A stretch of DNA of 32,000 nt from Acaryochloris marina MBIC11017 (GCF_000018105.1 NC_009925.1:3600001-3632000), one strand, 5' to 3'; positions 2,262 through 17,845 are shown, numbered from the stretch's first letter. Program-made: numbers and translations. The notes: generated by a model not told the origin, from the letters alone.

Positions 2262-2386
2262 AACTAACTCCTTGCAAGTGATCTGCATCTAGCCTGACCG
2301 CTCTGTTGGATAGCCGCAATAACCTCATAGGTCATTGAATTCATGATCGGTCTCGGTTGAGAATAGAGAGCAGAGTGGAGATATGC

Positions 2387-3223
2387 ATGACCTCTGCCGA
2401 CCCACAAAACTTTCAACATATTTGTCGCCATTGGCGTAAATTTAGGAAGCTATCGCAACTGGATTTAGCCCTGGCGGCTAATGTGTCACAACGCCATGTC
2501 AGTTGGCTGGAAACCGGGCGTAGTCATCCTAGCCGTGCTATGGTAGAGCGACTTTCAGAGGCCATGAATATCCCTTTACGGGAACGGAATGTGCTGTTAC
2601 AAGCCGCTGGGTATGCAACAACCTATCGCGAAACGGCCTTGGATAAGCCTGTGATGAGGCCAGTGCTAGACGCACTGAATCATGTCTTGCAATACCATGC
2701 CCCCTTGCCAGCTATCGTGGTCGATCGCGGCTGGAACGTTAAAAAAGCCAATCAGGCCGCAGAACTACTGCTCAGCCTTGGGGGAGACCTGCCAGCATTT
2801 CAGAACAATGTAGGAGCAGATGAACCCCTCAATTTAGCCTTGCTAACGGTTCATCCCGAGGGGCTCAGGCAATATATAACCAATTGGGATCAGGTCTGGC
2901 CTTCGATTATCCGCCGACTGAGGCGTGAATCTCTGGCCTCGGGGGATCGAGCCTTGCAAGAGCAATTTGCCCAATATATCGAATTAGCTGGTCCAGAAGG
3001 TTATAGCGAGCTAGATAGTGCTAGTTTATTGCCCGTTTTACCCTTGGAACTGGATATTAAGGGGTTGGAACTGAGTCTATTTTCGATTATTGCGACCTTT
3101 GGTACACCCCAGGACATTACGACTGATGAACTTCGGATTGAAACCTTTTATCCTACCGATGCTAAAACCGAACAGTTTTTTCGGAACCATTATTTTGAGA
3201 AGTCCGTTGTAGGTGAAATGTAG
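2387..3223 (+). CDS. MmyB-like helix-turn-helix transcriptional regulator (XRE-type HTH plus C-terminal MmyB-like ligand-binding domain)
   Basis: The N-terminal HTH is RKLSQLDLALAANVSQRHVSWLETGRSHPSRAMVERLSEAMNIPLRERNVLLQAAGY. It is followed by about 190 aa with the ...YPTD... tail typical of MmyB-family regulators. I prefer the ATG at 2387; the track uses a TTG at 2357. Confidence 0.8.
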   Translation: MTSADPQNFQHICRHWRKFRKLSQLDLALAANVSQRHVSWLETGRSHPSRAMVERLSEAMNIPLRERNVLLQAAGYATTYRETALDKPVMRPVLDALNHVLQYHAPLPAIVVDRGWNVKKANQAAELLLSLGGDLPAFQNNVGADEPLNLALLTVHPEGLRQYITNWDQVWPSIIRRLRRESLASGDRALQEQFAQYIELAGPEGYSELDSASLLPVLPLELDIKGLELSLFSIIATFGTPQDITTDELRIETFYPTDAKTEQFFRNHYFEKSVVGEM

Positions 3224-3373: not shown

Positions 3374-3736
3374 TTATTCCCCCACAATTGTGAGCTTTGC
3401 CCATTGTTGAGGGTCGTTGCTGGTAAATAGCTGTAGAGCATCACCTGCAAAATCTGGATGGGGTGTCCCCAGTTCATAGATGGAATTTTTGGTGGTTACA
3501 TACACCCGTCCTGCTTTGGTTAGGCATCCTTTGATGGGAGAAGATTTCAGCTTTTTCCCAGCCGGATACTTGGAGTGGTTAAAGATTTGCCCCTGAATAA
3601 CGACTTGATTGCCGATATCAACGCAAAGCCACGATTCGATAATCGGTAGGCTGAGAGATGCAGTATTGGATGCAGTTAACGTGGGTTGAGAATGTTCTAA
3701 ATAATAGTCCGTGATGTCATCAGCAATCATGATCAA
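3374..3736 (-). CDS. Hypothetical protein (120 aa)
   Basis: This is an open frame with an ATG start and no recognisable motif. It lies on the same strand as the sulfotransferase and 270 bp downstream of it. Confidence 0.4.
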   Translation of the reverse strand: MIMIADDITDYYLEHSQPTLTASNTASLSLPIIESWLCVDIGNQVVIQGQIFNHSKYPAGKKLKSSPIKGCLTKAGRVYVTTKNSIYELGTPHPDFAGDALQLFTSNDPQQWAKLTIVGE

Positions 3737-4006: not shown

Positions 4007-4900
4007 TTAATTTTTGGTGTCGTAGAGAGTCTTCCAGTCTGGAAAAGTCATACCTAATAGATTGCTGAGATCTGCGGTTTGTTTGAGTTGAATGGGCCGG
4101 AGAAATTGAATTGCTTCCTGTAGATCTTCAGCATCCTTGTCTCGGTCCACTTCCCGAACTGCTAATTTGAGGCCAGAAGAGCGAATCTTTTTGGGGAGTA
4201 ACGAGGCCAGTTGGTTGAAAGGCCATGTGTATCGCAGACGAAATAAAGCACTCTTTTGGTAGAACTGCTTTGGCGTTGCATGAAATTTTTCCGAGAGATT
4301 CTCAGGCGCAAAGGAGGCATCGACCCCCAGCCACTCAAACGTCTTGGTCATGCAGGCTTCCGCATTATTACAAAGTTCTTCAAAGGTGAGAAACAGAAAT
4401 TGATCGGGCGAAAAATATTGAAAGTAATGGTTGAGCTGCTTGGGATAATTACTAACATCTTGATAAAGCGGATTATTCTGTACGGCTGTGAGTAGGCTTT
4501 GATTTTCGTTCCCTTGGCGAGTTTCATGCCAATAGTGACTCACCGTGCGCTCAATGGGGTCCCTCATGATGTAAATAAAGCGAGCTTGAGGGTTGAACTG
4601 GGCGATGCGTTCGGCCACATCTGTAATATGGGGCTCTTTGGCATACAGCGTACTCGATTCACCCAAAATTGTTGCCTCACCAGCACCCTCAAAGAGGCGG
4701 AGATATTTCTCTTCATTTCCCCACAGGCCGAGCTTTTTCATATTGGGCCAGTTCAACTGTTTGGGATGCACAAAATAGCAGGGCTCTTTGGGCTCACACA
4801 TGAAAATAGACGGGTGATTATTGAGATATTGGTGCAAGGATGAGGTGCCCGATTTCATCGCACCAATAATAAACAGATTCGGTTTTCTTAAATCGCTCAT
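4007..4900 (-). CDS. PAPS-dependent sulfotransferase
   Basis: The 5'-phosphosulfate-binding loop is IIGAMKSGTSSLHQYL (PKxGTT-type). The 3'-phosphate-binding motif is IMRDPIERTVSHYWH (RDPxxRxxS). The 297-aa size is typical of soluble sulfotransferases. Confidence 0.85.
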   Translation of the reverse strand: MSDLRKPNLFIIGAMKSGTSSLHQYLNNHPSIFMCEPKEPCYFVHPKQLNWPNMKKLGLWGNEEKYLRLFEGAGEATILGESSTLYAKEPHITDVAERIAQFNPQARFIYIMRDPIERTVSHYWHETRQGNENQSLLTAVQNNPLYQDVSNYPKQLNHYFQYFSPDQFLFLTFEELCNNAEACMTKTFEWLGVDASFAPENLSEKFHATPKQFYQKSALFRLRYTWPFNQLASLLPKKIRSSGLKLAVREVDRDKDAEDLQEAIQFLRPIQLKQTADLSNLLGMTFPDWKTLYDTKN

Positions 4901-4987
4901 GGTATTAATGTGGAGGCCGCCTTAGCTTCACTTCTTTCTACAGTAGCAGTTGGTTCTAGTCAATCTGCACGGTGAAAAATGGAAGGT

Positions 4988-6520
4988 TTATGACCGCAAG
5001 ATAAATCGAGCTTTTAGCTGTCTAGGCACAGAGACGCCAAAATAAAATTCTTGGTCATGGGGCTGATCGCCAAATTCGATCTCTACTTTTGCTAACAAGG
5101 TGGCTAAGGTTAAGCGCATAAAGAATTTGGCAAAATCTTGACCAATGCAAGCTCGCTCACCTCGACCAAACGGGAAAAAGTAATCGCTACCATAGTCATT
5201 TTCGGCCAACGTTTTGGTATCCCAGCGTTCTGGCTGAAAAGAGTCTGAATCGTGCCAGTGGGGTGAGAGGCGATGGAGAAACCAGTTATTGATAAAAATT
5301 TGGGTATTCGCGGGAATCTCGTGACCAGCTAGATGGGTAGCGCCAACCGTATTGCGCGTAAAAAAGGGCACGGGCGGCCAGAGTCGCAGGGACTCTCGCA
5401 ATACTTGTTCCACTGGGATACAGTTTTCCAGTCGTTCCAAGGTGAGGGGTTCTTTGAATAACCCGTCCAAATCGTGTTGAAGCGCTGATAGGGCTTGAGG
5501 ATGCTGAAATAGCAAATGAAGTGTAGAGGTAATACCGCTGGGCGCAGAAACCGCTCCGCCTGGATAGACACCAGCGCAGAAGTTTCGCATTTGTTCAGGG
5601 GTAAAGGCAGAGCCTCCTCGTTTCAGAACCCAATCCAAGAGCGAACCACCAGCAGGATCGGCTTGAGTAGTTTCTAGCACTTCGCTAAAGCGTTGAAACC
5701 ATTGGCGACTTGCTTCTTTATAATGCTTACCTTTGGGTTCTTCCGGAATCATCCAGTTGGCAATGGAGGATCGGTTCATGCGATCAGTGCCCGTTGCACA
5801 GAGGGTATTGAATTGTTCAAAGACATGATCGGGAAAGACTTGGCCTACGGTTGCCAGGGAAAAGCCGTCGAAGGCGAGCTTCTGAATGACCTCATAAGCG
5901 GGGAGCATTTCGGTCTCAGACTGTTTGACCAATGCCTCCGCCCGACTTTCGATAAAAACCTGCAAGGGCTGAATTTGAGTCTCCATCCACTCGCGGAAGT
6001 AGGTCATATTAAATGGATTATTTTTGACCAGATGCTGCCATTTCGATCCAGCAGTTTTGGCTACAAAAGGATGACTATCTGTCAGGATGGGGCGAAGGGC
6101 TTTGCGGGGGATATCTTTATAAAAATCAGCTTGGTTGGCCCGATGTTCATGGGAATGTGGGTTAGTCTGCTGCTGGGCCGTGAGCAGGACTTGTTGGATT
6201 AAATCGGGGTCGTTGAGAACTAAGGATGGCCGGGCCAAAATCCAGAATAAGGACAAGCCACCATATTGCTGCCCCTGTTCTCCTAGCACCTGCCAAATAG
6301 GTTTCCCTTGCTGCAGAGCCCAGACATTACCAATGGGGAATAGAGGCTGAGGGCCTGGAATCTGGCTGAATGCTTGGGTCTGTTTGCTAAAGATCCGCTG
6401 AAATAAGGTCTGGGAATAGGACTGTAACTTTGATTCTACCCACTGTCGGGGTTTGGCCTCTAGCTGTTTGAGGGTATTGTGCAGTCCTGCAGTGAGGGAT
6501 CCGGCTGATAGACCTGTCAT
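4988..6520 (-). CDS. Cytochrome P450 (510 aa)
   Basis: The canonical Cys-ligand loop is FPFGRGERACIGQDFA (Cys codon 5147-5149). The K-helix ExxR is ESLRLWPP, and the PERF-type motif is FQPERW. The I-helix motif reads GGAVSA (5543-5560) where (A/G)Gx(D/E)T(T/S) is expected. Confidence 0.9.
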   Translation of the reverse strand: MTGLSAGSLTAGLHNTLKQLEAKPRQWVESKLQSYSQTLFQRIFSKQTQAFSQIPGPQPLFPIGNVWALQQGKPIWQVLGEQGQQYGGLSLFWILARPSLVLNDPDLIQQVLLTAQQQTNPHSHEHRANQADFYKDIPRKALRPILTDSHPFVAKTAGSKWQHLVKNNPFNMTYFREWMETQIQPLQVFIESRAEALVKQSETEMLPAYEVIQKLAFDGFSLATVGQVFPDHVFEQFNTLCATGTDRMNRSSIANWMIPEEPKGKHYKEASRQWFQRFSEVLETTQADPAGGSLLDWVLKRGGSAFTPEQMRNFCAGVYPGGAVSAPSGITSTLHLLFQHPQALSALQHDLDGLFKEPLTLERLENCIPVEQVLRESLRLWPPVPFFTRNTVGATHLAGHEIPANTQIFINNWFLHRLSPHWHDSDSFQPERWDTKTLAENDYGSDYFFPFGRGERACIGQDFAKFFMRLTLATLLAKVEIEFGDQPHDQEFYFGVSVPRQLKARFILRS

Positions 6521-6627
6521 GGGAGTATATCCTCTTATGCTGATTATGCTGAATGGTTGCGGTTGCCACGAGGTAACCTGCCAGGGCCCATCGCGTTGGC
6601 AAGTGCATTTTTGATGGCGAGTAGACT

Positions 6628-8640
6628 TTAGATATTGATGCTCTGGGGAATGTTGGACGGCTGTAGGTAGCGGTAAGGGTAGGGGCGATGGCGGTTTCGT
6701 TCTGCGATCGCAGTTTCGATATCCAGTAAATTGGCTTGAAACCGATGCAGCGGAGCTTGCACTCGCTGATCAGAGAACCAAGACTTTTCGTATTGACCGA
6801 GTTGCGTATGGTAAATCTGCCCGAGCAAATACGTTAACTCCAGCTGATTTAAGGCCTGGTGTAAGGAGGGCAGTTGGTTGAGCCGATCCTGGGAAGACAT
6901 AGCTGTCGAGTTGGGAGCGGGCTGGTAGCCTGCTAATGGCATCCCTGGGGTATAGACCATGATGTCGCCCTGGGGAAAATTCACAGCGGCATGTTGGGCA
7001 CTCGCGGTAAAGATGATCAGCGTGAGGGCTTGAATCAAGTAGGCCTGGGTTCGCAATTGTCCATCCTCACCAAAATCTGGGACTCGGCCACCCTCTTCAG
7101 CCTGTAGCTCCTGCGCCCAAGCCTGAAGGGCCGCATCTGTTTGCACGGAGTCATCTGTTGGGTAGTACAAGCTCACATAATCAGTGACCCAAGTTTCGAT
7201 GGCCTGCCAAATCAGCAATGCATCGTCTCGATAGGGGTGGATGGGAAGCGCCTCTGCATTATCCAAACCCAGTTGCCGCAATTGTTGGGGCAGCATGGCC
7301 TGATTAAAGGAATAGCTTTGTACTCCCTTTACGGCTAAGACCCTGGCACAGTCGATAGTGGCAGCCAAGACCGTATCCACTCCACCTTCTGGCGCCATTA
7401 ACATGCTTTGAGCACCGTTGTTGATACTTAAGGTGCCTTCAAAGTGAGGCCGAAGCAGGACACTCACGGGATGAGACGGCAGTAGTTGGCGATGGGTGGC
7501 AATTACAAACGGGCTAATAAACAGATGGGTTCGACCCAAATGGGTGACGGCCTCATGGTAATTGCTGTCTGCAACTTGCACGCAGGTCTTCGCCATGTCC
7601 CAGGCCTGTTTTTGGTCTGGATTCTGATCCGTAGGCGGCGTCAGAATCGGTGTTTCAGGCCCTGGAGATTGGCGGCATTGAATAGCGATGGGCTGGAGAT
7701 TTCGGCAGGGGGCATCAGCTGAGGGAACGGCAAAAAGGGCGATGGGAGCCGAAATATATTTTTGCTGATCGGGGTAGTTACCATTGATCGCACCAGCCAA
7801 AATAGCATAATCGGCGATGTATAGACGGCCTTCGGTGATTGCTATTTGCAGAGAATCGTCTTCTCCCATTACGGTCTGATAATGCTGATTGGTAACTGGG
7901 AAATGAGAGCAGAGGATGTCTCCCGATAAATGGCGGACTTGTTGCAGCAAAACAGGATTAGGACCGGCTACTCGCAAGTAAGCAAAAAACTCATCTTCTT
8001 GAAAGTATTCGGCACACTCCGGTAACGGAATCGTTGCAAACTGCTGATTAAAGTCTGCTATTGAGGTAGGGCGATCTTGTCCACATTCATGGGCTAGATG
8101 TTCTTTTAAGTTCAAGTGCAGAATCCGTAATAGATCATGCTCTAAATGGGCGGCTAAACTGTGCAGCAAGCTTTCGGCATCAGAAAACGACAACCGTAAA
8201 CCGTTAAGCAAAGTCGTTGGCGCTGTTTTCAGCAGATGCCAGATGAGACGCCACCGCACCTCGGGGCGTTGTCTCAAGATATCCACCAAGGTTTTGCGAA
8301 TGAGGCGAGAAGCATGCTGCTCTGCTTCATGCTCATGGTGGTGATTATGGGCGCCAACAATGGCATTCGAGAGAATCTTGAACATGGTACGGATCAACTT
8401 TGACCACCAAGCCCTAGAGGGGAGTTCCTCTTTGGGTAAGCGATCCACCATGGCCACAGGGGCAATGTGACTATAGTTGTATTGATATTTGCGTCGAGCT
8501 GCTTTTAGCGCTGCGGGGATAGGCTCCGGCTGGGTCGGATTAGGACGAGTGGGGGCCAGAGTGGGTTGATGTTTGTCCTGTTGAATTTCTACAGGTGTGA
8601 TTTGGGTCGGCAGGCCAGTGAGGGAGTACTGATGCGTCAT
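6628..8640 (-). CDS. Lipoxygenase (670 aa, iron type)
   Basis: The His cluster is YHEAVTHLGRTHLFISPF (H-x4-H), and the second ligand block is SAQHAAVNFPQGD (His/Asn). The C-terminal ...PQSINI ends in Ile, the carboxylate iron ligand. LRVAGPNPVLL marks the start of the catalytic domain at about aa 220. Confidence 0.9.
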   Translation of the reverse strand: MTHQYSLTGLPTQITPVEIQQDKHQPTLAPTRPNPTQPEPIPAALKAARRKYQYNYSHIAPVAMVDRLPKEELPSRAWWSKLIRTMFKILSNAIVGAHNHHHEHEAEQHASRLIRKTLVDILRQRPEVRWRLIWHLLKTAPTTLLNGLRLSFSDAESLLHSLAAHLEHDLLRILHLNLKEHLAHECGQDRPTSIADFNQQFATIPLPECAEYFQEDEFFAYLRVAGPNPVLLQQVRHLSGDILCSHFPVTNQHYQTVMGEDDSLQIAITEGRLYIADYAILAGAINGNYPDQQKYISAPIALFAVPSADAPCRNLQPIAIQCRQSPGPETPILTPPTDQNPDQKQAWDMAKTCVQVADSNYHEAVTHLGRTHLFISPFVIATHRQLLPSHPVSVLLRPHFEGTLSINNGAQSMLMAPEGGVDTVLAATIDCARVLAVKGVQSYSFNQAMLPQQLRQLGLDNAEALPIHPYRDDALLIWQAIETWVTDYVSLYYPTDDSVQTDAALQAWAQELQAEEGGRVPDFGEDGQLRTQAYLIQALTLIIFTASAQHAAVNFPQGDIMVYTPGMPLAGYQPAPNSTAMSSQDRLNQLPSLHQALNQLELTYLLGQIYHTQLGQYEKSWFSDQRVQAPLHRFQANLLDIETAIAERNRHRPYPYRYLQPSNIPQSINI

Positions 8641-8982
8641 TGTTGATCCGGTCTATGTGTGTTCTGACGTAAATGGCAACTGCCTGTGATCAGGGGTGTA
8701 GGGATAATCCGTAGCAGCTACCGATTCAGCTCTAGTGTTCCCAAGTCTGGCCTAGATTTTACTGTCGAAATAGCTTGAAGTCTGGGCAAGCTTGTACTAT
8801 CTAGATTGATAACTATTTAGTCTCTAAATGAGAAATGTTTGTATTAAAACCGATGTCAATTGAATTGTGATAAATCGAGTTATAGACTTATTCTTAATGG
8901 TTAGCTAAAAGTGAGGCGACTGAGTGCCGCTGACGCTTCATTAAGCTTAGTATTGCTAGGCATTTATTGATTAATGCTGATA

Positions 8983-8998
8983 TCGATTTTTAAATCGA
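8983..8998. promoter_or_regulatory. Perfect inverted repeat TCGATTT-TT-AAATCGA inside the 680-bp AT-rich divergent intergenic region
   Basis: Read directly from the sequence: arms at 8983-8989 and 8992-8998. The half-site TAAATCGAG recurs at 8871-8879, and an inverted CTCGATT lies at 9079-9085. Its function is not established. Confidence 0.4.
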
Positions 8999-9321
8999 GA
9001 GAGATGCAAAGAATGGACTATTCAAATGTAAAATATCTAATTTTCCGTTTTTATCAAGATTTTTTGGGTTTGTGACGGCTCGATTAAAAAGCAGTCTTAG
9101 AAGGCTGATATAAATATTACAGTTACAACTATGCCTCATTAATTTGGTATCTATCCATCGTGGTCCTTGTTTGCTGAATAGTCTTGAAACCATAACAAAG
9201 AAATTTCTGAGATCTTGCAAGTTTTAGGTGCGTTTGGGGAACATCTAGATTGAAGCAATTGCTTATATTTTTCTTTTAAGAAAAGTTAGTTATTCTATTT
9301 CCTGGCTTGGAGCAATAATTG

Positions 9322-12300
9322 ATGTTGGGGACAATCGCGGACTGTCGTCTGGTTGAGCATCTCTATGAGAGTGAGAATTCTATTGTGTATCGGGGCCAAC
9401 GACAGGCTCAGCCACATCAGGTCATTCTGAAAGTCTTGAAAGAAGATTACCCAACCGCTTCAGAACTGACTCGGTATCGTCAAGAATATGAGATTACCCG
9501 CAGCCTCGAACTCGAAGGGGTGATCAAAGTGTTGGGGCTAGAACCCTATCAACGAACCCTAGCCATTATTTTGGAAGATGTTGAAGGGGTGTCCCTGAAG
9601 TCTTATTACCAGGGAAAGGTGGTGCCGTTGGTAGAGTTTCTACCCTTAGCCATCAGTATTACCGAAGTTTTAGGTCGGATTCATGGACATAATGTCATCC
9701 ATAAAGATCTGAATCCTAGCAACATCATTTTGAATCCAGATACGCATCAGTTACGGATCATTGATTTTGGCATTTCTACCCAACTCAGCCGGGAAACAAC
9801 CATCCTTAAAAACCCCCAAGTTCTCGAAGGGACGCTGCCCTATATTGCGCCTGAACAGACGGGGCGCATGAATCGCTCTCTGGATTATCGGACGGACTTT
9901 TATGCATTGGGGGTGATGTTTTACGAGCTACTGACGGGACAGTTACCTTTTACGGCTGAGGATCCGCTGAAATTAGTCCATTGTCATTTAGCGCAACAGC
10001 CCACCCCTCCCCATCAAGTCAATTTCGACATCCCTAGGGTGTTATCTGACTTGGTGATGATCTTGATGTCGAAAACCGCCGAAGAACGGTATCAGAGCGC
10101 ATTCGGAATCCAAGCTGATTTGGCGACCTGTTGGCAACAACTGAAGCAAACAGGGGAAATTCGAGCCTTTCCGCTTCGGACCCAGGACCATTCGGATAAG
10201 TTTCATATTCCGCAAAAGCTCTATGGGCGGTCCCAAGAAATTGCGGCCTTATTAACGGCCTTTGAGCGGGTCAATCACCCCCAAAATCCAACCAAAGGGA
10301 GTGAGATGATGCTGGTGGCGGGGTATTCCGGGATTGGCAAATCGGCGCTAGTCGCAGAAGTCCATAAACCGATTACCGAAAAACGAGGATATTTTATCTC
10401 GGGGAAATACGATCAATTTCAGCGAGATGTGCCTTACTCGGCTGTTATCAGTGCGTTTCAAGATTTAGTCAAGCAACTCCTGACTGAAAGTGAAACCCAA
10501 TTACTCCAATGGCGACGACAATTGCTGGCAGCTTTGGGACCGAATGGCCAAGTCATCATTGATGTCATCCCTGAAATTGAGTTGATTACAGGGGCTCAGC
10601 CTCCAGTGCCTGAATTGGGACCTGCAGAAGCTTTGAACCGATTTAACCTGGTATTTCAAAATTTTATTCGGGTGTTTTGTACCCCAGCCCATCCCTTAGT
10701 GGTGTTCTTAGATGATTTGCAATGGGCTGATTCCGCCAGCTTAAAGTTGATCAAGTTGATGATGACGGATCGGCAAATGCGATCTCTGTTGCTCATCGGT
10801 GCTTACCGTGATAACGAAGTCGATGCGACTCATCCCTTGATGACCTTGGTGAAGCAGCTCTGGCAAGAAAAAGTCAACATCAATACGATTACGCTACAGC
10901 CTCTCTCTCAGCTGCATTTGTGCCAGCTGATTGCGGATACCGTTCACCATAATTTAGAGACCACCCTCTCCTTAGCGGAGTTAGTCCTCAATAAAACGGA
11001 AGGAAATCCCTTTTTCGTCAATGAGTTTCTGAAGAATCTCTATGGGGAAGAGCTGTTGCAGTTTAATCCCCGCGCTCAACAGTGGGAATGGGATATGGCC
11101 CAAATTCAGTCTCAGGATCTCACGGATAACGTGATTGAACTGTTGATTAGCAAACTGAAAAAATTACCCCCTGCCACCCAAGATGTTTTGCGGTTGGCTG
11201 CTTGTGTGGGGGCTGAATTTGATCTGCAGACCCTGAGCCTAATTCGTCAGCAATCCCATGCCGAGGTATTTTCGGATTTGAAAGTCGCGATTCAGCTTGG
11301 GTTGATCTTTGCCCAGTCTGAGCTCAATGATGCATTAGTGATTACGGATTTTCGCTTTGGTCACGATCGAATTCAACAAGCCGCTTATGCCTTAATTGAT
11401 ACCGATAGCCGTTCTGCAGTGCACTTGAGAATTGGCCGTTTGTTATGGCATAACATGGAAACGGAACAACTGGCAGAGCGCATTTTTGAGGTGGTGGACC
11501 ATCTCAATCAGGCCCTCCCCCTGATTACGGATCTAGACGAACAAGATCAGGTCGCTCAACTTAACCTCAAAGCGGGCCAGAAAGCAAAATCAGCGACGGC
11601 TTACGGTGCTGCCGTCCGGTATCTGCAAACGGGATTGAGTTTGGTGGGAGAGACGGGATGGCAAAATGCCTATCCCTTAACCCTCCAGCTCCATCAAGAA
11701 GCAGTTGAAGCGGCGTATCTACACCAAGATTATCCCCAGCAAGAACAGCTAACGACCGTGGTGCTGCAGCAGGCCAGAACCGTGTTGGATATGGTGAAAG
11801 TCTACCGGGTCAAAATTTTAGCCCGTTCTGCTCAGAATCGCCATCTAGAGGCAACGGATATTGGCTTTGAGATTTTGGAGCGGCTAGGGGTCACCTTTGT
11901 AGACCCCACCCCTGAGAACTTGCAGCAAGAGTTGGAGCAAACCAAGCAGCTCTGTGCGGACCGCTCGATCCAAGATTTGATCCGTTTGTCTCCTATGACT
12001 GCAGAGGACAAACTAGCAGCCATGCAGATTCTCTCGGATATCTTGTCCTCTGGCTATCAAGCCTCTTTTGAACGCTTTATCCTCAGTAATCTGAAGCAAA
12101 TTCACTTATCTCTCACCTATGGCAATACGGCCCCTTCCGCGTTTGCCTACGACTGTTATGGCATTACCCTCTGTGGAGTCGTCGGAGATAGTGAAGCAGG
12201 TTATCAGTTTGGCCGGTTGGCCTTACAGGTGGTTGATAAGTTTCAGGCGAAAAAGACCAAGAGTCGGGTGGTTTTTGTGTTCAATGCGTTTGTACGCCAC

Positions 12301-14835
12301 TGGACAGAGCCCCTGAATTTGACGATTCCCGATTTGCATGAAGGGTATCAAATTGGTTTAGAAACCGGGGATTTAGAATATGCCAGCTATTCCCTCTGTT
12401 GGGAGGCAATGCATTCTTTATTAACGGGGGAGCAACTGTCAGATTTGGCGCTGCGAATGCTGGAGTTTCAGCAAGCCATTGCCGGTTTTCAACAGGCCGC
12501 TTGCCTCCTTTATCTCCAAATTTTTCAACAGGTCACTGCTCATTTAACTGAGCCCAACTTGGATCCGACCCGCTTGTCTGGGACGTACCTACAAGAACGA
12601 CAGGTCCTTGTGGACAGTGCGGATAATAAGCTAGCCTTAGCATTCTTTTATACCTTGAAAGCTCAGGTGGCTTACCTGTTGGAACAGCCTAAGACGGCTT
12701 TAGAGAGTACCAAACAAGCGGCGGCCTATGTGGACGGTATGACGGCTGCAGCGACGGTTGCCAGCCTCAATTTTTACGATTCTCTGGCCCGGTTAGCTCT
12801 CTATGATGGGCTACCCCCTGTAGAGCAAGAGCAGATGTTAGCAGTCGTCGCTACGAATCAAGATCAACTGCAGAAATGGGCTAACCATGCACCTGCCAAC
12901 CATCAGCATAAATATTGCTTAGTAGAAGCAGAGCGGTATCGCGTCTTGCGGCAGCTACCGCAGGCGGGGGAGGCTTATGATCGAGCGATTGCCCTGGCAC
13001 AATCCCACCATTACCCTAATGAAGCCGCCTTAGCTAATGAGCTGGCAGCGAAGTGTTTTCTGCAGCAAGAGCGAGATAACTTTGCTCGGGTGTATCTGAA
13101 TGAAGCTTATTACGGGTACTACTGCTGGGGGGCCACGGCTAAACTACGTCAATTAGAAGCCTCCTACCCTTACCTCCTGGCCCAGCAGGTAATCCATTCC
13201 CAACAGGGTACTATTCCCACTACACCTCTAGCCGCGGCAGCATCAACGAGTACCATTCGCACGGGGCAAGCTTTGGATCTGAATACGGTCTTGCAGGCTT
13301 CACAGGCGATTGCAGGGGAAATTGTCCTCGATAAGCTATTGATGACCCTGATCAAAATCCTTGTGCGTAATGCGGGGGCCCAAGTAGGGCATTTAATTTT
13401 AAATGTGGAAGGCAGCCTTGTTATTGAGGCATCGTTTAATTCTCAATCTGACCAGGGTCAGGTGCTGCAGTCTCAGCCTATTGCGGATCAGCTTCCCGAC
13501 AGTATCATCAACTACGTGCTTCGAACCCAGGAGAGTGTTGTCCTTCGACAGGCCACCCAAGACAGTAACTTTGGCTTGGATACTTATATTACGACCCATC
13601 AGCCCAAATCGATTCTTTGTGCGCCGCTTCTGAATCAAGGACAGTTGAGCGGGATTCTTTATTTAGAAAATAATCTGACGACGGGAGCCTTTACGGCGGA
13701 TCGCCTAGAAATTTTGCAGCTCCTGTCAGGACAGGCTGCGATCGCAATCGACAATGCCCGCCTGTATACCAACCTGGAAGAGAAGGTCGATGAACGGACT
13801 CAGGAACTCTCCCAAGCCTTAGAAGATCTACAGCTTGCTCAAGAAGGACTGATTCAGTCAGAAAAAATGGCGGCATTGGGACAATTGATCGCGGGCGTGG
13901 CCCACGAAATTAATACTCCTCTGGGGGCGATTCGGTCTTCGATTGAATATATTGCTAATTTTCTCGATCAGCATCTGACCACCCTGCCGCAATTTTTTCG
14001 AGAGTTACCCATCGAGCAAGCCGAGCAATTTCAATCCCTGTTGTTACGCGCCTTAACCCCTTCACCGACTCTGTCTGGTCGTGAACGACGCCATACCCGT
14101 AAGGCAATCGCCAAGCAACTCACCGAGCAGAAGATTTCATCGGCGGAGTCTTTAGCCAGTTTATTGCTGGATTTAGGGATTTGCGATGACATCCATGATC
14201 TCCTTCCTCTCCTGTCTGAACCCGGGAGTGAACCCTTATTAAAGATGGTGCGACAGTTTACGCGGGTGCGTGAAAGTACACGGGATATTGCGACCGCTAG
14301 CGATCGTTCTGCCAAAATTGTGTTTGCTCTGAAAACTTATGCCCGCTATGACCATAGCGGAGACAAGATTGAAGCCAACATCACGGACGGCATTGATGCG
14401 GTCTTAACCCTCTATCACAACCAAATCAAACATGGGGTAACGGTCCATCGCTCTTTTGCCGAGATTCCCCCCATTGCTTGCTATTTTGATGAACTGAATC
14501 AGGTGTGGACCAACCTCCTTCATAATGCCCTCCAGGCCATGGACCATCAAGGCACCCTTGATATTGATGTCAGTCAACAGGCAGATCAAGTCTGCGTCAA
14601 GATTACTGATAGCGGGCCTGGCGTTCCCCTGGAGTTAAAAGGGAAAATTTTTGAGCCCTTTTTCACCACTAAACCCCCTGGCGAAGGCAGTGGCTTAGGT
14701 CTTGACATTGTCCGCAAAATAATTGACAAGCATCAGGGTACTCTAAGCTTGGACTCCGTTCCTGGTCGCACAACCTTTACGGTGACCTTGCCCATGTCTG
14801 CCAATCTGACCCCTCAACCGACTCCAGCCCTATGA
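9322..14835 (+). CDS. Multi-domain sensor kinase: Ser/Thr protein kinase, AAA/STAND ATPase, TPR-like helical repeats, GAF and histidine kinase (HstK-type dual kinase)
   Basis: The kinase domain has VILKVLK (beta3 Lys), HKDLNPSN (9700-9708), IIDFGIS and YIAPEQ. The ATPase has Walker A VAGYSGIGKSALV and Walker B LVVFLDDLQWAD. The GAF region is ...ILCAPLLNQGQLSGILYLEN.... The DHp H-box is SEKMAALGQLIAGVAHEINTPLG (His codon 13903-13905), and the HATPase motifs are HNALQAM, DSGPGV and GEGSGLGLDIV. The ATG at 9322 immediately follows the TTG at 9319. Confidence 0.9.
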   Translation: MLGTIADCRLVEHLYESENSIVYRGQRQAQPHQVILKVLKEDYPTASELTRYRQEYEITRSLELEGVIKVLGLEPYQRTLAIILEDVEGVSLKSYYQGKVVPLVEFLPLAISITEVLGRIHGHNVIHKDLNPSNIILNPDTHQLRIIDFGISTQLSRETTILKNPQVLEGTLPYIAPEQTGRMNRSLDYRTDFYALGVMFYELLTGQLPFTAEDPLKLVHCHLAQQPTPPHQVNFDIPRVLSDLVMILMSKTAEERYQSAFGIQADLATCWQQLKQTGEIRAFPLRTQDHSDKFHIPQKLYGRSQEIAALLTAFERVNHPQNPTKGSEMMLVAGYSGIGKSALVAEVHKPITEKRGYFISGKYDQFQRDVPYSAVISAFQDLVKQLLTESETQLLQWRRQLLAALGPNGQVIIDVIPEIELITGAQPPVPELGPAEALNRFNLVFQNFIRVFCTPAHPLVVFLDDLQWADSASLKLIKLMMTDRQMRSLLLIGAYRDNEVDATHPLMTLVKQLWQEKVNINTITLQPLSQLHLCQLIADTVHHNLETTLSLAELVLNKTEGNPFFVNEFLKNLYGEELLQFNPRAQQWEWDMAQIQSQDLTDNVIELLISKLKKLPPATQDVLRLAACVGAEFDLQTLSLIRQQSHAEVFSDLKVAIQLGLIFAQSELNDALVITDFRFGHDRIQQAAYALIDTDSRSAVHLRIGRLLWHNMETEQLAERIFEVVDHLNQALPLITDLDEQDQVAQLNLKAGQKAKSATAYGAAVRYLQTGLSLVGETGWQNAYPLTLQLHQEAVEAAYLHQDYPQQEQLTTVVLQQARTVLDMVKVYRVKILARSAQNRHLEATDIGFEILERLGVTFVDPTPENLQQELEQTKQLCADRSIQDLIRLSPMTAEDKLAAMQILSDILSSGYQASFERFILSNLKQIHLSLTYGNTAPSAFAYDCYGITLCGVVGDSEAGYQFGRLALQVVDKFQAKKTKSRVVFVFNAFVRHWTEPLNLTIPDLHEGYQIGLETGDLEYASYSLCWEAMHSLLTGEQLSDLALRMLEFQQAIAGFQQAACLLYLQIFQQVTAHLTEPNLDPTRLSGTYLQERQVLVDSADNKLALAFFYTLKAQVAYLLEQPKTALESTKQAAAYVDGMTAAATVASLNFYDSLARLALYDGLPPVEQEQMLAVVATNQDQLQKWANHAPANHQHKYCLVEAERYRVLRQLPQAGEAYDRAIALAQSHHYPNEAALANELAAKCFLQQERDNFARVYLNEAYYGYYCWGATAKLRQLEASYPYLLAQQVIHSQQGTIPTTPLAAAASTSTIRTGQALDLNTVLQASQAIAGEIVLDKLLMTLIKILVRNAGAQVGHLILNVEGSLVIEASFNSQSDQGQVLQSQPIADQLPDSIINYVLRTQESVVLRQATQDSNFGLDTYITTHQPKSILCAPLLNQGQLSGILYLENNLTTGAFTADRLEILQLLSGQAAIAIDNARLYTNLEEKVDERTQELSQALEDLQLAQEGLIQSEKMAALGQLIAGVAHEINTPLGAIRSSIEYIANFLDQHLTTLPQFFRELPIEQAEQFQSLLLRALTPSPTLSGRERRHTRKAIAKQLTEQKISSAESLASLLLDLGICDDIHDLLPLLSEPGSEPLLKMVRQFTRVRESTRDIATASDRSAKIVFALKTYARYDHSGDKIEANITDGIDAVLTLYHNQIKHGVTVHRSFAEIPPIACYFDELNQVWTNLLHNALQAMDHQGTLDIDVSQQADQVCVKITDSGPGVPLELKGKIFEPFFTTKPPGEGSGLGLDIVRKIIDKHQGTLSLDSVPGRTTFTVTLPMSANLTPQPTPAL

Positions 14836-15227
14836 CTAAACTGGCTATTCTTTGTGTTGACGATGAAGTCATTATTCTCAACAGTCTCCTACGACAGCTG
14901 CAAACTGCTTTTGACGATCACTACATCTATGAAACGGCTGAAAATGCCAGCGAAGCCTTGGAGCTGATTGAAGAACTTCAGGAAGAAAATACAGATCTGT
15001 TAGTGATTGTGTCGGATTGGTTAATGCCTGGGGCAAAAGGAGATGAATTCCTGATTCAAGTCCACCAGCAGTTCCCAGGGGTCGTCAAGATTTTGCTGAC
15101 TGGTCAAGCTGATGAAGCAGCAGTAGAACGAGCGCAGTCCCAAGCCAATCTGTTTAATTGTTTACGCAAACCCTGGAATGAAAGTGATCTGATCCAATGT
15201 ATTCAATCAGCCTTAGGAACAGTGTAA
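14832..15227 (+). CDS. Stand-alone response-regulator receiver (CheY-like)
   Basis: Receiver motifs are CVDDE, the phospho-acceptor region LLVIVSDWLMPG, LLTGQAD and LRKPW. The ATG overlaps the upstream TGA (ATGA at 14832-14835), which suggests translational coupling. Confidence 0.9.
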   Translation: MTKLAILCVDDEVIILNSLLRQLQTAFDDHYIYETAENASEALELIEELQEENTDLLVIVSDWLMPGAKGDEFLIQVHQQFPGVVKILLTGQADEAAVERAQSQANLFNCLRKPWNESDLIQCIQSALGTV

Positions 15228-15242
15228 AGACTAATCAGGACG

Positions 15243-16517
15243 ATGCCTAAACCCATAATTGTTTGTGTGGATGATGAAATCGCAGTCCTAGATAGCCTCA
15301 GACGTGAGCTATCTGAAGTGTTTGAAGATACCTGCGAAATAGAAACTGCTATGGGGGGCAAGGATGCCATTGCCCTGGTCCATGACCTGATCGAAGATGA
15401 ATGCGATTTATCGGTCATCATTGCTGATTATCTGATGCCAGACATCAAAGGAGACGCAGTCTTACAACAAGTCCATCAGCTCTCTCCCCAAACTTTGACC
15501 ATTATGTTGACGGGGCAAGCGAATGTTGATGGTATTTCCAATGCCATCAATACGGCCCAGCTGTATCACTACATTGCCAAACCCTGGCAACCTGAAGCGT
15601 TACAGTTAACGGTGCGAGAGGCTCTCAATCGCTATCAACTCTCTAAAAAAATTAAAGACTATCAACAAACCCTCGAACGTAAAGTTGAAGAGCGTACCCA
15701 GGAATTATCCGAAACGTTGCATACCCTGCAAACCACCCAATCAGAACTGATTCAGGCGGAAAAAATGGCTGCCCTAGGCCAGTTAGTGGCGGGCGTAGCC
15801 CATGAAATTAATACCCCTGTGGGCAATGCCCTGTTAGCCGCCTCGGTATTGAATAATGAAACCAGTTCTTTAACTCAAGCCTTTGAGCAAGGAGCGTTAA
15901 AACGATCGGCCTTAGTGGGTTATTTGCAGACTGCTCAAGAGAGTAGTGATCTGATCTTGCAAAATCTGCATGGGGCGGCGGCCCTCATTCAAAACTTCAA
16001 GCAAGTTGCGGTGGATCAAACCAGTCATGAGCAACGAGAGTTTCAGATCATCCCGTATATTGAGAGTGTATTGACCAATTTGGAACCGAAATTAAAACGG
16101 ACTCGCCATACGGTGACGGTTTCAGGGGATGCTGCTCTAAAAACCACTAGTTATCCAGGAGCACTGTCACAAGTTGTGACTAATTTTGTCATGAATTCCC
16201 TTATGCATGCCTACCAACCTGGAGAGGCAGGGCAATTAAAATTTGAAGTGACTCAACAACAAGATCGGATTATTCTCGAATATACCGATGATGGTTGTGG
16301 CATTCCAGCAGAACATCAGCCTAAGATTTATGAACCTTTTTTTACCACGGGTCGAGATCGGGGCGGCAGTGGTTTAGGTCTGCATATTGTTCACAATCTG
16401 GTCACCCAGTCCCTTGGAGGAACCTTGTCTTGCCAGAGTGAGGTTTCCGTAGGAACTCAGTTTATGCTGCAGTTACCCTTGACCTTAAGGAAGGGGGAGG
16501 CTCATGCCCGAGGATAA
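15243..16517 (+). CDS. Hybrid receiver-histidine kinase (N-terminal REC, then DHp and HATPase)
   Basis: The REC has CVDDE, [17 protein letters not shown] and IAKPW. The H-box is [23 protein letters not shown]. The ATPase motifs are NSLMHA, DDGCGIP and [11 protein letters not shown]. Confidence 0.9.
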   Translation: [424 protein letters not shown]

Positions 16518-17766: not shown

Positions 17767-17845
17767 GTTTTTCAGCAGGAGAAGAGTGCGATTTACAGAC
17801 AGCCGGGGAACACTGGATGTAATTCGCGAGATCAGCCGAACGGCC

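What the first reader, a model, noticed from the sequence alone, without database searches (positions are those of the whole stretch)
4007..8640. Lipoxygenase -> cytochrome P450 -> sulfotransferase cluster: candidate pathway to a modified, possibly sulfated, oxylipin
Three minus-strand genes lie head-to-tail, with gaps of 107 bp (LOX/P450) and 87 bp (P450/sulfotransferase). I could find no convincing hairpin plus U-tract in either gap, so co-transcription is plausible. All three proteins carry intact catalytic signatures. The LOX has its His/His/His/Asn blocks and a C-terminal Ile. The P450 has its Cys loop. The sulfotransferase has both PAPS-binding motifs. In known systems, lipoxygenases are partnered with CYP74 P450s (plants) or catalase-related haem domains (corals, some cyanobacteria) that transform the fatty-acid hydroperoxide. 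A canonical-loop P450 followed by a PAPS sulfotransferase is a different arrangement, and I do not know of a characterised example. The simplest reading is PUFA -> hydroperoxide (LOX) -> epoxy-alcohol, allene oxide, hydroxy or cleaved product (P450) -> O-sulfate ester (sulfotransferase). By eye the cluster is more AT-rich than the housekeeping genes: about 40-43% GC in sulfotransferase lines I counted, against about 48% elsewhere. That would be consistent with accessory or horizontally acquired status.
Basis: partly seen in the sequence, partly recalled or inferred. Interest (0 to 1): 0.85.

Follow-up and report, generated by a model that had tools for sequence, protein, structure and literature searches.

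The report
Bacterial lipoxygenase–P450 oxylipin cassette
The lipoxygenase and P450 genes form a two-gene unit that recurs, sometimes fused into one protein, in five bacterial phyla and usually sits beside a large signalling kinase, whereas the sulfotransferase is a local add-on from a sugar-sulfating family, so a sulfated lipid product is unproven.

Summary
The three minus-strand genes are real, intact and spaced as reported: LOX 6628-8640, P450 4988-6520, sulfotransferase 4007-4900. The organism is an Acaryochloris cyanobacterium.

The LOX-P450 pair is strongly supported as a functional unit.
- Relatives of this P450 lie next to a lipoxygenase in 29 of 44 non-redundant loci from five phyla.
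- LOX and P450 divergence is tightly correlated (Mantel r = 0.93).
- Natural P450-LOX fusion proteins exist.
- All 40 family members examined lack the I-helix acid that oxygen-activating P450s use (V/F/Y/I, then an invariant Ser). The haem loop is canonical, so this is not CYP74.
- I infer a self-sufficient P450 that converts fatty-acid hydroperoxides. No biochemistry exists for it.

A giant Ser/Thr-kinase/AAA_16 protein lies beside the P450 in 24 of 44 loci. Here it is a hybrid Ser/Thr-histidine kinase heading an operon with two diguanylate cyclases.

The sulfotransferase link is weak. It follows the P450 only in two Acaryochloris lineages and is absent in a third and everywhere else. Its closest outside relatives sit in glycosyltransferase clusters, never beside a LOX or P450.

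Only the sulfotransferase and orf120 have below-average GC.

Verdict: a new variant of a known kind; the sulfated-oxylipin idea is possible but unsupported.

The parts
6628..8640 (-). Lipoxygenase, 670 aa. It is of the P. aeruginosa LoxA type, with no PLAT domain and no signal peptide.
   Evidence: Pfam PF00305, 2.3e-65. The best solved relatives are 4RPE and 4G32, at E about 1e-115 over residues 53-670. Iron ligands H367, H372, H550, N554 and I670 are conserved.
6521..6627 (-). LOX-P450 intergenic gap, 107 bp
   Evidence: No terminator-like site on the minus strand. The predicted fold has no hairpin followed by a U-tract, and an AAGAGGA Shine-Dalgarno-like motif precedes the P450 ATG. The gap aligns continuously with L051.
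4988..6520 (-). Cytochrome P450, 510 aa, from a small family that is usually next to a LOX. Its I-helix reads G321-G322-A-V324-S325 where ordinary P450s have A-G-x-E/D-T. The Cys loop is canonical (C458).
   Evidence: Pfam PF00067, 3.2e-45. The I-helix aligns to A-G-H-E-T of CYP97A3. In 40 family members the acid position is V, F, Y or I and the Thr position is Ser in all 40. AlphaFold2 model pLDDT is 88.5. The nearest folds are CYP97, CYP3A4 and P450 BM3. Only 102 representatives score E <= 1e-30 among 1.84 billion.
4901..4987 (-). P450-sulfotransferase intergenic gap, 87 bp
   Evidence: No minus-strand terminator-like or promoter-like site, and no hairpin with a U-tract in the fold.
4007..4900 (-). 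PAPS-type sulfotransferase, 297 aa. It is a lineage-specific addition from a family otherwise found in glycan clusters.
   Evidence: Pfam Sulfotransfer_3 2.5e-21 and Sulfotransfer_1 2.6e-15. Best PDB match is 3RNL (2.4e-23), followed by heparan-sulfate 3-O-sulfotransferases; E81 aligns with their catalytic-Glu region. It follows the P450 only in L049, L050 and L051. Relatives in L052 and L081 lie among GT2/GT4 genes, dTDP-rhamnose genes and a second sulfotransferase. GC is 45.3%.
3374..3736 (-). orf120, a small protein restricted to Acaryochloris that travels with the sulfotransferase
   Evidence: No Pfam or NCBIfam match. All 32 homologous clusters that carry a name are from Acaryochloris. 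It follows the sulfotransferase in L049-L051. dN/dS is 0.06 against L051. Paralogous DNA lies on Acaryochloris plasmids.
8641..9318 (.). Divergent intergenic region of 678 bp and 36% GC, between the LOX and the kinase operon
   Evidence: One promoter-like site lies on the minus strand at 9057-9030, though such sites are no more frequent here than in shuffled sequence. The flanks are conserved in L051 and L007.
9319..14835 (+). Giant hybrid Ser/Thr-histidine kinase (HstK-like), 1838 aa: Pkinase, AAA_16, GAF, HisKA, HATPase_c
   Evidence: Pfam. It is adjacent to the P450 in all Acaryochloris, Acaryochloridaceae and Synechococcus-MAG loci (58-90% identity) and in one Leptospirales locus (34% over 1509 aa). 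Planctomycete loci have Pkinase-AAA_16 homologues beside the P450.
14832..18892 (+). Signalling genes downstream of the kinase: response regulator (14832-15227), RR-histidine kinase (15243-16517), RR-GGDEF (16504-17766), RR-GGDEF (17786-18892)
   Evidence: Pfam. Start and stop codons overlap or abut. The same order is seen in L001 and L047.

Best explanation
The core of this locus is a conserved bacterial two-gene oxylipin cassette.

Step 1 (inferred from family membership): the LoxA-type iron lipoxygenase dioxygenates a polyunsaturated fatty acid, free or lipid-bound, to a hydroperoxide.

Step 2 (inferred): the adjacent P450 takes that hydroperoxide directly. It would need neither O2 nor NAD(P)H nor a redox partner, and would rearrange or cleave the substrate to an epoxy-alcohol, allene oxide, diol or aldehyde type of product. 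This parallels what CYP74, CYP5A1/CYP8A1 and the fungal DOX-linked CYPs do. The P450 belongs to a small family that lacks the I-helix acid used for O2 activation.

Step 3 (association shown, direction unknown): the cassette is genetically tied to a giant Ser/Thr-kinase/STAND-type signalling protein. Here that protein is a hybrid Ser/Thr-histidine kinase heading an operon that ends in two diguanylate cyclases. The product is therefore most likely a signal sensed by, or an output controlled by, that pathway.

Step 4 (weakly supported): in one Acaryochloris sub-lineage a PAPS sulfotransferase recruited from a glycan-sulfating family, plus a small ORF, was appended downstream of the P450. It may O-sulfate a hydroxyl of the product, or it may have an unrelated acceptor.
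For: Gene identities and intact catalytic residues.

Adjacency. Among 44 non-redundant loci holding a relative of this P450, a LOX lies next to it in 29. They span Cyanobacteriota, Planctomycetota, Leptospiraceae, Myxococcota and an alphaproteobacterium. Two different LOX clades are involved and both gene orders occur. LOX genes are rare in bacteria, under 0.5% of species (PMC6612559).

Co-inheritance. LOX and P450 pairwise identities correlate at Mantel r = 0.93, with 0 of 2000 permutations reaching that value.

Fusions. P0338 is P450-PLAT-LOX and carries the same acid-less I-helix (FFGGALS). P0362 is P450-LOX, in a bacterial operon with a second LOX upstream.

Substitution of the partner. 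Three planctomycete-type loci carry a RoxA-like di-haem cytochrome next to or near the P450; two of these lack a LOX. Di-haem enzymes make and isomerise fatty-acid hydroperoxides in P. aeruginosa (PMC4496055).

P450 chemistry. The acid position is V, F, Y or I in 40 of 40 members and the Thr position is always Ser. Self-sufficient hydroperoxide- or endoperoxide-converting CYPs likewise depart from the acid-alcohol pair (PMC13049297). No ferredoxin or reductase gene lies in the 32-kb window.

Accessory genes in other lineages fit lipid-peroxide metabolism: a Tle1-like phospholipase, a thioredoxin/AhpC-like protein and an FAD oxidoreductase.

Signalling link. A Pkinase-AAA_16 giant is adjacent in 24 of 44 loci, 11 of which lack a LOX. 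Leptospiraceae have a chemoreceptor gene two genes after the LOX. One family member is fused to cNMP-binding domains.

Sulfotransferase. It is retained with LOX-P450 in two lineages with dS above 1 and dN/dS of 0.05.
Against: No enzyme of this P450 family has been assayed, and nothing here measures activity.

The haem loop is fully canonical (FxxGxRxCxG) and Ser is kept at the Thr position, so an ordinary redox-partner-dependent monooxygenase with an unlinked ferredoxin cannot be excluded.

The nearest sequence and fold relatives are true monooxygenases: CYP97, CYP46, CYP3A and P450 BM3.

Fifteen of 44 loci have no LOX beside the P450, though some of those contigs are short. The P450 can therefore work without an adjacent LOX.

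The LOX-P450 identity correlation is partly expected from shared species history.

Ser/Thr kinases are numerous in planctomycetes and cyanobacteria, and the planctomycete kinases share only the N-terminal 800 residues with the cyanobacterial one.

Co-transcription is not shown.

For the sulfotransferase, all outside context points to glycan acceptors.
Confidence: 0.6

Rival explanations
1. One reading: LOX, P450 and sulfotransferase act in sequence in one operon and produce an O-sulfated oxylipin.
For: All three genes are on the same strand, with gaps of 107 and 87 bp and no terminator. The block LOX-P450-sulfotransferase-orf120 is collinear in a second Acaryochloris lineage at 77% nucleotide identity, and synteny ends right after orf120. 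All four genes are under strong purifying selection, with dN/dS of 0.05-0.08 and dS of 1.3-2.1. No glycan-synthesis genes lie nearby in the window to supply another acceptor. Cyanobacterial sulfotransferases that act on hydroxy-acyl chains exist; the CurM sulfotransferase 4GOX is a weak hit at E = 0.008.
Against: No sulfotransferase lies near the P450 in any of the 46 loci first fetched. That set includes the 81%-identical Acaryochloris bin.137, which has 1.9 kb downstream of the P450, and A. thomasi. Relatives at 43-66% identity lie among GT2/GT4 genes, dTDP-rhamnose genes and a second sulfotransferase. No sulfotransferase-centred locus outside Acaryochloris (30 examined) has a LOX or P450. 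The best PDB matches after 3RNL, whose function I do not know, are heparan-sulfate 3-O-sulfotransferases.
Confidence: 0.25
2. The P450 is a conventional O2- and NAD(P)H-dependent monooxygenase served by an unlinked ferredoxin system. It hydroxylates or epoxidises the fatty acid or the reduced LOX product, rather than rearranging the hydroperoxide.
For: The Cys loop, ExxR and PERW motifs are canonical. Ser is retained at the Thr position. The closest sequence and fold relatives are monooxygenases, including the fatty-acid hydroxylase P450 BM3. Cyanobacteria have abundant ferredoxins encoded elsewhere (general knowledge).
Against: The I-helix acid is hydrophobic or aromatic in 40 of 40 members across five phyla. 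No redox partner is adjacent in the window. In the other loci I checked only the conserved neighbour families and a few Pfam-annotated loci, and saw none there. The known fusions are to a LOX, not to a reductase. The partner dioxygenase is swapped for a different hydroperoxide-forming type of enzyme in two loci.
Confidence: 0.2
3. This is a lipid-peroxide stress module. The P450 removes or converts lipid hydroperoxides however they arise, including photo-oxidative non-enzymatic peroxidation. The giant kinase senses the damage, and the LOX is an optional extra.
For: Eleven loci keep the P450 next to the kinase without any LOX, in the Synechococcus MAGs, one Acaryochloridaceae genome, Schlesneria and Zavarzinella. 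Leptospiraceae loci add a thioredoxin/AhpC-like gene.
Against: A LOX deliberately makes hydroperoxides, which is the opposite of detoxification, yet it is the commonest neighbour (29 of 44 loci) and is even fused to the P450. Whether the loci without a LOX encode one elsewhere in the genome is unknown.
Confidence: 0.12

Closest known systems
Plant, algal and some bacterial LOX-CYP74 pathways (allene oxide synthase, hydroperoxide lyase, divinyl-ether synthase, epoxy-alcohol synthase)
   Same: A lipoxygenase is paired with a P450 that departs from the I-helix acid-alcohol pair. The expected substrate is the LOX hydroperoxide.
   Different: This P450 is not in the CYP74 clan. Its haem loop is canonical and lacks the nine-residue insertion. 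It has V-S where CYP74 has the catalytic Asn region. Its best sequence and fold matches are CYP97, CYP46, CYP3A and CYP102. The genes form a bacterial operon rather than being dispersed.
Catalase-related allene oxide synthase-LOX fusions (Plexaura and other corals, Acaryochloris marina, Anabaena PCC 7120)
   Same: A LOX is coupled to a haem enzyme that consumes its hydroperoxide. The same genus, Acaryochloris, has one (Gao et al. 2009 and 2010, cited). Fusion proteins exist for both systems.
   Different: There the partner is a catalase-fold haemoprotein, here a P450. In the window the two are separate genes. The window LOX is LoxA-like and 670 aa, not a mini-LOX domain.
COX to CYP5A1/CYP8A1, and fungal DOX-CYP fusions (linoleate diol synthase, AOS, EAS)
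   Same: A dioxygenase is followed by a self-sufficient P450 with a non-canonical I-helix residue facing the haem (PMC13049297). CYP5A1 belongs to the CYP3 clan (general knowledge), and CYP3A enzymes are among the nearest structural relatives here.
   Different: Those dioxygenases are haem peroxidase-type, not iron lipoxygenases. They are eukaryotic. No sequence-level orthology is shown.
Pseudomonas aeruginosa oleate-diol synthase operon PA2077-PA2078 and its oxylipin quorum sensing
   Same: A bacterial operon encodes a hydroperoxide-forming dioxygenase followed by a hydroperoxide isomerase, and the products act as signals (PMC4496055, PMC6377657). RoxA-like di-haem proteins take the place of the LOX next to this P450 in Zavarzinella.
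   Different: Both Pseudomonas enzymes are di-haem cytochrome c peroxidase-like, with no LOX or P450. The sensor there is a transcription factor, not a giant kinase.
P. aeruginosa LoxA (PDB 4G32, 4RPE)
   Same: It is the closest solved relative of the window LOX, at E about 1e-115. The iron ligands, the N-terminal helical region and the absence of a PLAT domain are shared.
   Different: LoxA is secreted. The window LOX has no signal peptide, and it has a P450 partner.
Glycan sulfotransferases of cyanobacterial exopolysaccharide clusters, and heparan-sulfate 3-O-sulfotransferases
   Same: The PAPS motifs and a Glu in the catalytic-base region are shared. Relatives at 56-66% identity lie in glycosyltransferase clusters.
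   Different: Here the gene lies after a P450 with no glycan genes nearby. The acceptor is unknown.

Membership tests
Lipoxygenase (PF00305) | A profile match above the curated threshold over the catalytic domain | tested here: met
   221.8 bits against a cut-off of 23.6, covering residues 201-654.
Lipoxygenase (PF00305) | Iron ligands: two His in helix 9, then His and Asn, then the C-terminal Ile carboxylate | tested here: met
   H367, H372, H550, N554 and I670 align with the LoxA ligand motifs.
Cytochrome P450 superfamily | Cys-ligand loop FxxGxRxCxG, ExxR and PERF/W motifs, and the P450 fold | tested here: met
   FPFGRGERAC458IG, ESLR 376-379 and PERW 430-433. Pfam 155 bits. The AlphaFold2 model has TM 0.7-0.8 to CYP97, CYP3A4 and BM3.
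CYP74 clan | A nine-residue insertion in the haem-binding loop (stated in PMC10813956) | tested here: not met
   The loop has canonical spacing in all 40 family members.
CYP74 clan | Closest sequence and structure relatives are CYP74 enzymes | tested here: not met
   No CYP74 appears among the best 60 PDB sequence matches or the best 50 fold matches. The top hits are CYP24, CYP46, CYP3A, CYP97 and CYP102.
Self-sufficient hydroperoxide- or endoperoxide-converting P450s (a functional class) | The I-helix acid-alcohol pair used for O2 activation is lost | tested here: inconclusive
   The acid is replaced by V, F, Y or I in 40 of 40 members, but the alcohol position keeps Ser in all 40.
Self-sufficient hydroperoxide- or endoperoxide-converting P450s (a functional class) | Turnover of a fatty-acid hydroperoxide without O2, NAD(P)H or a redox partner | not testable with these tools
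   This needs enzyme assays. The only indirect evidence is that no redox-partner gene lies in the window and that fusions are to a LOX, not to a reductase.
PAPS-dependent sulfotransferase (PF13469 / PF00685) | 5'-phosphosulfate-binding loop and 3'-phosphate-binding motif | tested here: met
   GAMKSGTSS at 13-21 and RDPIERTVS at 113-121. Pfam scores are 77 and 57 bits, above the cut-offs.
Small-molecule (cytosolic SULT-type) sulfotransferases | Closest relatives act on small hydroxylated molecules | tested here: not met
   After 3RNL, the best PDB relatives are heparan-sulfate 3-O-sulfotransferases, with a Glu aligned in the catalytic region. The genomic context of relatives is glycan synthesis.
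Operon (single transcript LOX-P450-sulfotransferase) | Read-through transcription across both gaps | not testable with these tools
   Only negative evidence is available: no terminator-like or promoter-like site on the minus strand in either gap.
Hybrid Ser/Thr-histidine kinases of cyanobacteria (HstK-like) | An N-terminal Pkinase domain and a C-terminal HisKA-HATPase_c in one protein | tested here: met
   Pkinase 20-258, AAA_16 300-493, GAF 1337-1477, HisKA 1520-1574 and HATPase_c 1724-1827. The family name comes from my own knowledge, not from a tool.

The most novel reading that the evidence does not exclude
LOX-P450 is the biosynthetic half of a cross-phylum bacterial oxylipin signalling system. 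The cassette, sometimes a single fused protein, makes a lipid mediator. The adjacent STAND-type Ser/Thr kinase senses it; in Acaryochloris this is the hybrid kinase feeding two diguanylate cyclases, and in Leptospiraceae the sensor would be a chemoreceptor. In one Acaryochloris lineage a recruited glycan-type sulfotransferase O-sulfates the mediator, either to tune it or to activate a hydroxyl as a leaving group.
Probability: 0.2. Interest if true: 0.85.

Novelty: new variant of a known kind. Interest (0 to 1): 0.62.

Why it matters
What bacterial lipoxygenases are for is still an open question. Recent reviews treat them as stand-alone enzymes: a 2026 review of bacterial LOXs mentions P450s only as a general class of fatty-acid-oxygenating enzymes and in its reference list, never as a LOX partner or neighbour.

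A dedicated, non-CYP74 P450 partner would give bacteria their own equivalent of the plant LOX-CYP74 and animal COX-CYP5/8 cascades. Here that partner is conserved next to LOX genes in five phyla, fused to a LOX in some organisms, and tied to large signalling proteins.

The finding also points to concrete experiments in tractable hosts such as Myxococcus, Corallococcus and Leptospira. It offers a new family of possibly cofactor-free P450 catalysts for fatty-acid hydroperoxide conversion. Finally, it corrects the emphasis of the original finding: the sulfotransferase is the least secure part.

Tried and rejected
- **Antisense ORF artefact.** A 19-locus "family" from the neighbour clustering proved to be antisense ORFs overlapping LOX and P450 genes in high-GC genomes. 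I discarded it.
- **Catalase-related guess.** From motifs, I guessed that the 422-aa protein after the LOX in Anabaena 4-3 was catalase-related. It has no Pfam match and no PDB sequence match at E <= 10, so the guess is not supported.
- **NCBIfam.** No curated family reaches its cut-off for the LOX, the P450, the sulfotransferase or orf120.
- **Fold search.** The P450 model matches generic P450s (CYP97, CYP3A4, BM3) at about 20% identity. This does not separate a monooxygenase from a hydroperoxide isomerase.
- **Plasmid search.** The cluster is on no PLSDB plasmid. Only orf120 paralogues and one distant Nostoc LOX match, so this gives no support for plasmid-borne acquisition.
- **Compositional argument for horizontal transfer.** The LOX and P450 have average GC. 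Only the sulfotransferase and orf120 are 4-5 points lower, with average GC3.
- **Literature.** Eight full-text searches and six papers read found no report of a bacterial LOX-P450 pairing or of a P450-LOX fusion. The library holds only open-access papers and preprints, so this is not proof of absence. The M. xanthus study tested two other P450s (MXAN_0683 and MXAN_2304) as candidate thromboxane synthases and found no activity. It does not mention the LOX-adjacent P450.
- **MmyB-like regulator (2357-3223).** It is kept only in near-identical strains and is replaced by TetR and SnoaL genes in L051. I do not treat it as part of the unit.

Full report
**1. Observation**

The gaps are 107 and 87 bp.

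Pfam assigns them to Lipoxygenase (2.3e-65), p450 (3.2e-45) and Sulfotransfer_3/Sulfotransfer_1 (2.5e-21 and 2.6e-15).

The catalytic residues are intact.
- The LOX aligns over residues 53-670 with P. aeruginosa LoxA (4RPE/4G32, E about 1e-115). H367, H372, H550, N554 and the C-terminal I670 are conserved. It has no PLAT domain and no signal peptide.
- The P450 has ExxR, PERW and a canonical Cys loop, FPFGRGERAC458IG.
- The sulfotransferase has both PAPS-binding motifs.

Neither gap holds a terminator-like or promoter-like site on the coding strand. Folding the gaps shows no hairpin followed by a U-tract.

The compositional remark is only partly right. LOX is 51.3% GC and the P450 49.2%, which equals the window mean of 49.2%. 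Only the sulfotransferase (45.3%) and the following orf120 (44.6%) are lower, and the sulfotransferase GC3 is average.

The organism is an Acaryochloris. The best P450 hits are 79-91% identical, and those that carry a name are from Acaryochloris assemblies.

**2. The LOX-P450 pair is a conserved unit**

I aligned 27 P450 relatives (A1) and scanned one genome per GTDB species, which returned 40 loci. Protein look-ups added further loci.

After removing duplicates there are 44 loci, counting the window.
- A lipoxygenase lies beside the P450 in 29 of them.
- These come from Acaryochloris and other Acaryochloridaceae, Anabaena 4-3 and Cyanothece BG0011, Gemmatales and Kuenenia (Planctomycetota), Leptospiraceae, Myxococcota, and the alphaproteobacterium Qipengyuania.
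- Two distinct LOX clades are used, and both gene orders occur.
- One Leptospirales locus has the tandem arrangement P450-LOX-P450-LOX.

Bacterial LOX genes are rare, under 0.5% of species (PMC6612559), so this adjacency is far beyond chance.

Across 25 complete pairs, LOX and P450 pairwise identities correlate at Mantel r = 0.93, and none of 2000 permutations reached that value. This fits inheritance as a unit, although shared species history contributes to the correlation.

An exhaustive phmmer search of 1.84 billion representatives found 31,693 P450s at E <= 1e-3 but only 102 at E <= 1e-30, so the family is small.

That list contains natural fusion proteins.
- P0338 (1200 aa) is P450-PLAT-Lipoxygenase.
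- P0362 (935 aa) is P450-Lipoxygenase. It was found on four contigs, in an operon-like bacterial context with a second LOX gene upstream.

Gene fusion is the classical indicator that two proteins work together.

**3. What kind of P450**

Aligned to CYP97A3 and CYP46A1, the I-helix motif A-G-x-E/D-T corresponds to G321-G322-A-V324-S325.

In 40 family members from five phyla, the acid position is V (15), F (13), Y (8) or I (4). It is never D or E. The Thr position is Ser in all 40. The fusion protein P0338 has the same pattern, FFGGALS.

The acid-alcohol pair delivers protons for O2 activation. Self-sufficient CYPs that isomerise hydroperoxides or endoperoxides (CYP74, CYP5A1, CYP8A1, fungal LDS/AOS/EAS) all depart from it (PMC13049297).

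No ferredoxin or reductase gene lies anywhere in the 32-kb window.

Three planctomycete-type loci carry a RoxA-like di-haem cytochrome near the P450, and in the two Zavarzinella loci it stands where the LOX would be. Di-haem enzymes form and isomerise fatty-acid hydroperoxides in P. aeruginosa (PMC4496055).

Other lineages add genes that fit lipid-peroxide metabolism.
- Anabaena 4-3 and Cyanothece have a Tle1-like phospholipase upstream.
- Four Leptospiraceae loci have a thioredoxin/AhpC-like protein.
- Kuenenia and Schlesneria have an FAD-binding oxidoreductase.

From this I infer that the P450 acts directly on the LOX hydroperoxide.

The inference is not proven. The Cys loop is canonical, with none of the CYP74 insertion. 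Ser is retained at the Thr position. The nearest sequence and fold relatives are genuine monooxygenases: CYP24, CYP46, CYP3A, CYP97 and CYP102 (model pLDDT 88.5).

**4.

A 1838-aa protein is transcribed divergently from the LOX across a 678-bp, 36%-GC spacer. Its domains are Pkinase, AAA_16, GAF, HisKA and HATPase_c. It is followed by a response regulator, an RR-histidine kinase and two RR-GGDEF diguanylate cyclases.

A Pkinase-AAA_16 giant is adjacent to the P450 in 24 of 44 loci.
- It is present in all the Acaryochloridaceae loci.
- It is present in two Synechococcus MAGs that have no LOX, at 58-62% identity over the full length.
- One Leptospirales locus has it at 34% identity over about 1500 residues.
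- The planctomycete loci have it in four different local arrangements. Those proteins share the kinase domain and the AAA_16/helical region, residues 1-800.

In all, 40 of 44 loci have a LOX, such a kinase, or both beside the P450.

Leptospiraceae lack the kinase but have a methyl-accepting chemoreceptor gene two genes after the LOX. One family member is fused to two cNMP-binding domains.

The association with signalling proteins is therefore recurrent. Whether the oxylipin is the input or the output of that signalling is unknown.

**5. The sulfotransferase**

tblastn found no sulfotransferase in any of the 46 P450-centred loci first fetched.

The 81%-identical Acaryochloris bin.137 has 1.9 kb downstream of its P450 with unrelated ORFs. 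Collinearity with the window stops at the P450 stop codon.

The sulfotransferase follows the P450 in near-identical strains (L049, L050). It also does so in one diverged lineage (L051).
- There the block from kinase through LOX, P450, sulfotransferase and orf120 is collinear at 77% nucleotide identity. Synteny breaks immediately after orf120.
- All four genes are under purifying selection, with dN/dS of 0.05-0.08, at saturated dS of 1.3-2.1.

The association is therefore old within that sub-lineage, not a one-strain accident.

Against a role in the pathway:
- The closest relatives outside Acaryochloris, at 66% and 56% identity, sit among GT2/GT4 glycosyltransferases, dTDP-rhamnose genes and a second sulfotransferase.
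- Nine sulfotransferase-centred loci outside Acaryochloris have GT2 or GT4 genes nearby (seven metagenomic loci plus L052/L053 and L081). None of the 30 such loci has a LOX or P450.
- After 3RNL, whose function I do not know, the best solved relatives are heparan-sulfate 3-O-sulfotransferases. A Glu aligns with their catalytic region.

Four independent assemblies break within 31-174 bp after the P450 stop. This would fit strain-level presence or absence of the sulfotransferase-orf120 segment.

orf120 belongs to a small family whose named members are all from Acaryochloris, and paralogues lie on Acaryochloris plasmids.

I put the chance that the sulfotransferase acts on the LOX/P450 product at about one in four.

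**6. Comparison with what is known, and novelty**

Functionally the cassette resembles several known systems: plant LOX-CYP74, coral and cyanobacterial catalase-AOS-LOX, animal COX-CYP5/8, fungal DOX-CYP, and the P. aeruginosa di-haem diol-synthase operon.

It fails the CYP74 membership tests on both the haem-loop insertion and the nearest relatives. It matches no curated NCBIfam family.

Eight literature searches and six papers, including a 2026 review of bacterial LOXs, gave no mention of a bacterial LOX-P450 pairing or of a P450-LOX fusion. The searched library holds only open-access papers and preprints, so this is not proof that the pairing is unpublished.

I classify the finding as a new variant of a known kind: a dioxygenase plus a haem enzyme that consumes its hydroperoxide. 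What is new is the P450 family and the link to signalling proteins.

**7. Verdict**

The LOX-P450 coupling is strong. The sulfation step is weak. The kinase partner was overlooked.
- Confidence in the best explanation is 0.6, and interest is 0.62.

Noticed in passing
window 9319-18892: A five-gene signalling operon is transcribed divergently from the LOX. It encodes a giant Pkinase-AAA_16-GAF-HisKA-HATPase protein, a response regulator, an RR-histidine kinase and two RR-GGDEF diguanylate cyclases. Start and stop codons overlap or abut.
   Followed up: partly
P0338 and P0362 (proteins); L082 8001-10808, L083 5523-8330: Natural P450-LOX fusion proteins occur in the same P450 family. P0338 is P450-PLAT-LOX. 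P0362 is P450-LOX in a bacterial operon, with a second LOX and an FGE-sulfatase-domain gene upstream.
   Followed up: partly
P0344 and P0315: Two other family members are fused to different modules: two cyclic-nucleotide-binding domains in P0344, and a multi-pass membrane region plus an unassigned C-terminal domain in P0315.
   Followed up: no
L003 11382-13052, L016 1665-3257, L021 15583-17124: In the two Zavarzinella loci (L003, L016) a RoxA-like di-haem cytochrome c gene lies beside the P450 where a LOX would be, between the P450 and the Ser/Thr kinase. A third, unclassified locus (L021) has both a LOX and this gene. The di-haem protein may be an alternative hydroperoxide-forming dioxygenase.
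   Followed up: partly
L018, L019, L023, L024 (downstream of the LOX): In Leptospiraceae the order is FecR-like gene, P450, LOX, thioredoxin/AhpC-like gene, then a methyl-accepting chemotaxis protein. This arrangement is conserved in four loci. L020 has a tandem P450-LOX-P450-LOX duplication after a 1793-aa kinase.
   Followed up: partly
L006 8716-14859, L038: Anabaena 4-3 and Cyanothece BG0011 share the order Tle1-like phospholipase, P450, second-clade LOX. In Anabaena 4-3 a 422-aa protein with no Pfam or PDB match follows the LOX. My guess that it is catalase-related was not supported.
   Followed up: yes
window 3374-3736: orf120 belongs to a small protein family whose named members are all from Acaryochloris (32 clusters). 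Paralogous DNA at 67-78% identity lies on several Acaryochloris plasmids. The gene always follows the sulfotransferase where the latter is present.
   Followed up: partly
L004, L013, L047, L048 (contig ends): Contigs from four independent assemblies end 31-174 bp after the P450 stop codon. This suggests an assembly break caused by strain heterogeneity at the boundary between the P450 and the sulfotransferase.
   Followed up: no
window 2357-3223: An MmyB-like transcription regulator (HTH_3 plus the MLTR ligand-binding domain) lies just beyond orf120 on the opposite strand. It is conserved only in near-identical strains and is replaced by TetR and SnoaL-like genes in L051.
   Followed up: partly
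window 23662-24195; L002 2270-2833; L005 2772-3329: A DUF2518 gene lies a few kb from the kinase-P450 locus both in this window and in the two Synechococcus MAGs. This hints at an old, vertically inherited chromosomal neighbourhood for the kinase-P450 pair.
   Followed up: no
L052 5685-6809 and L081 8494-9633: An unannotated protein of about 375 aa, 48% identical between the two loci, lies next to the sulfotransferase relative in both glycan clusters. It may be a dedicated partner in polysaccharide sulfation.
   Followed up: no
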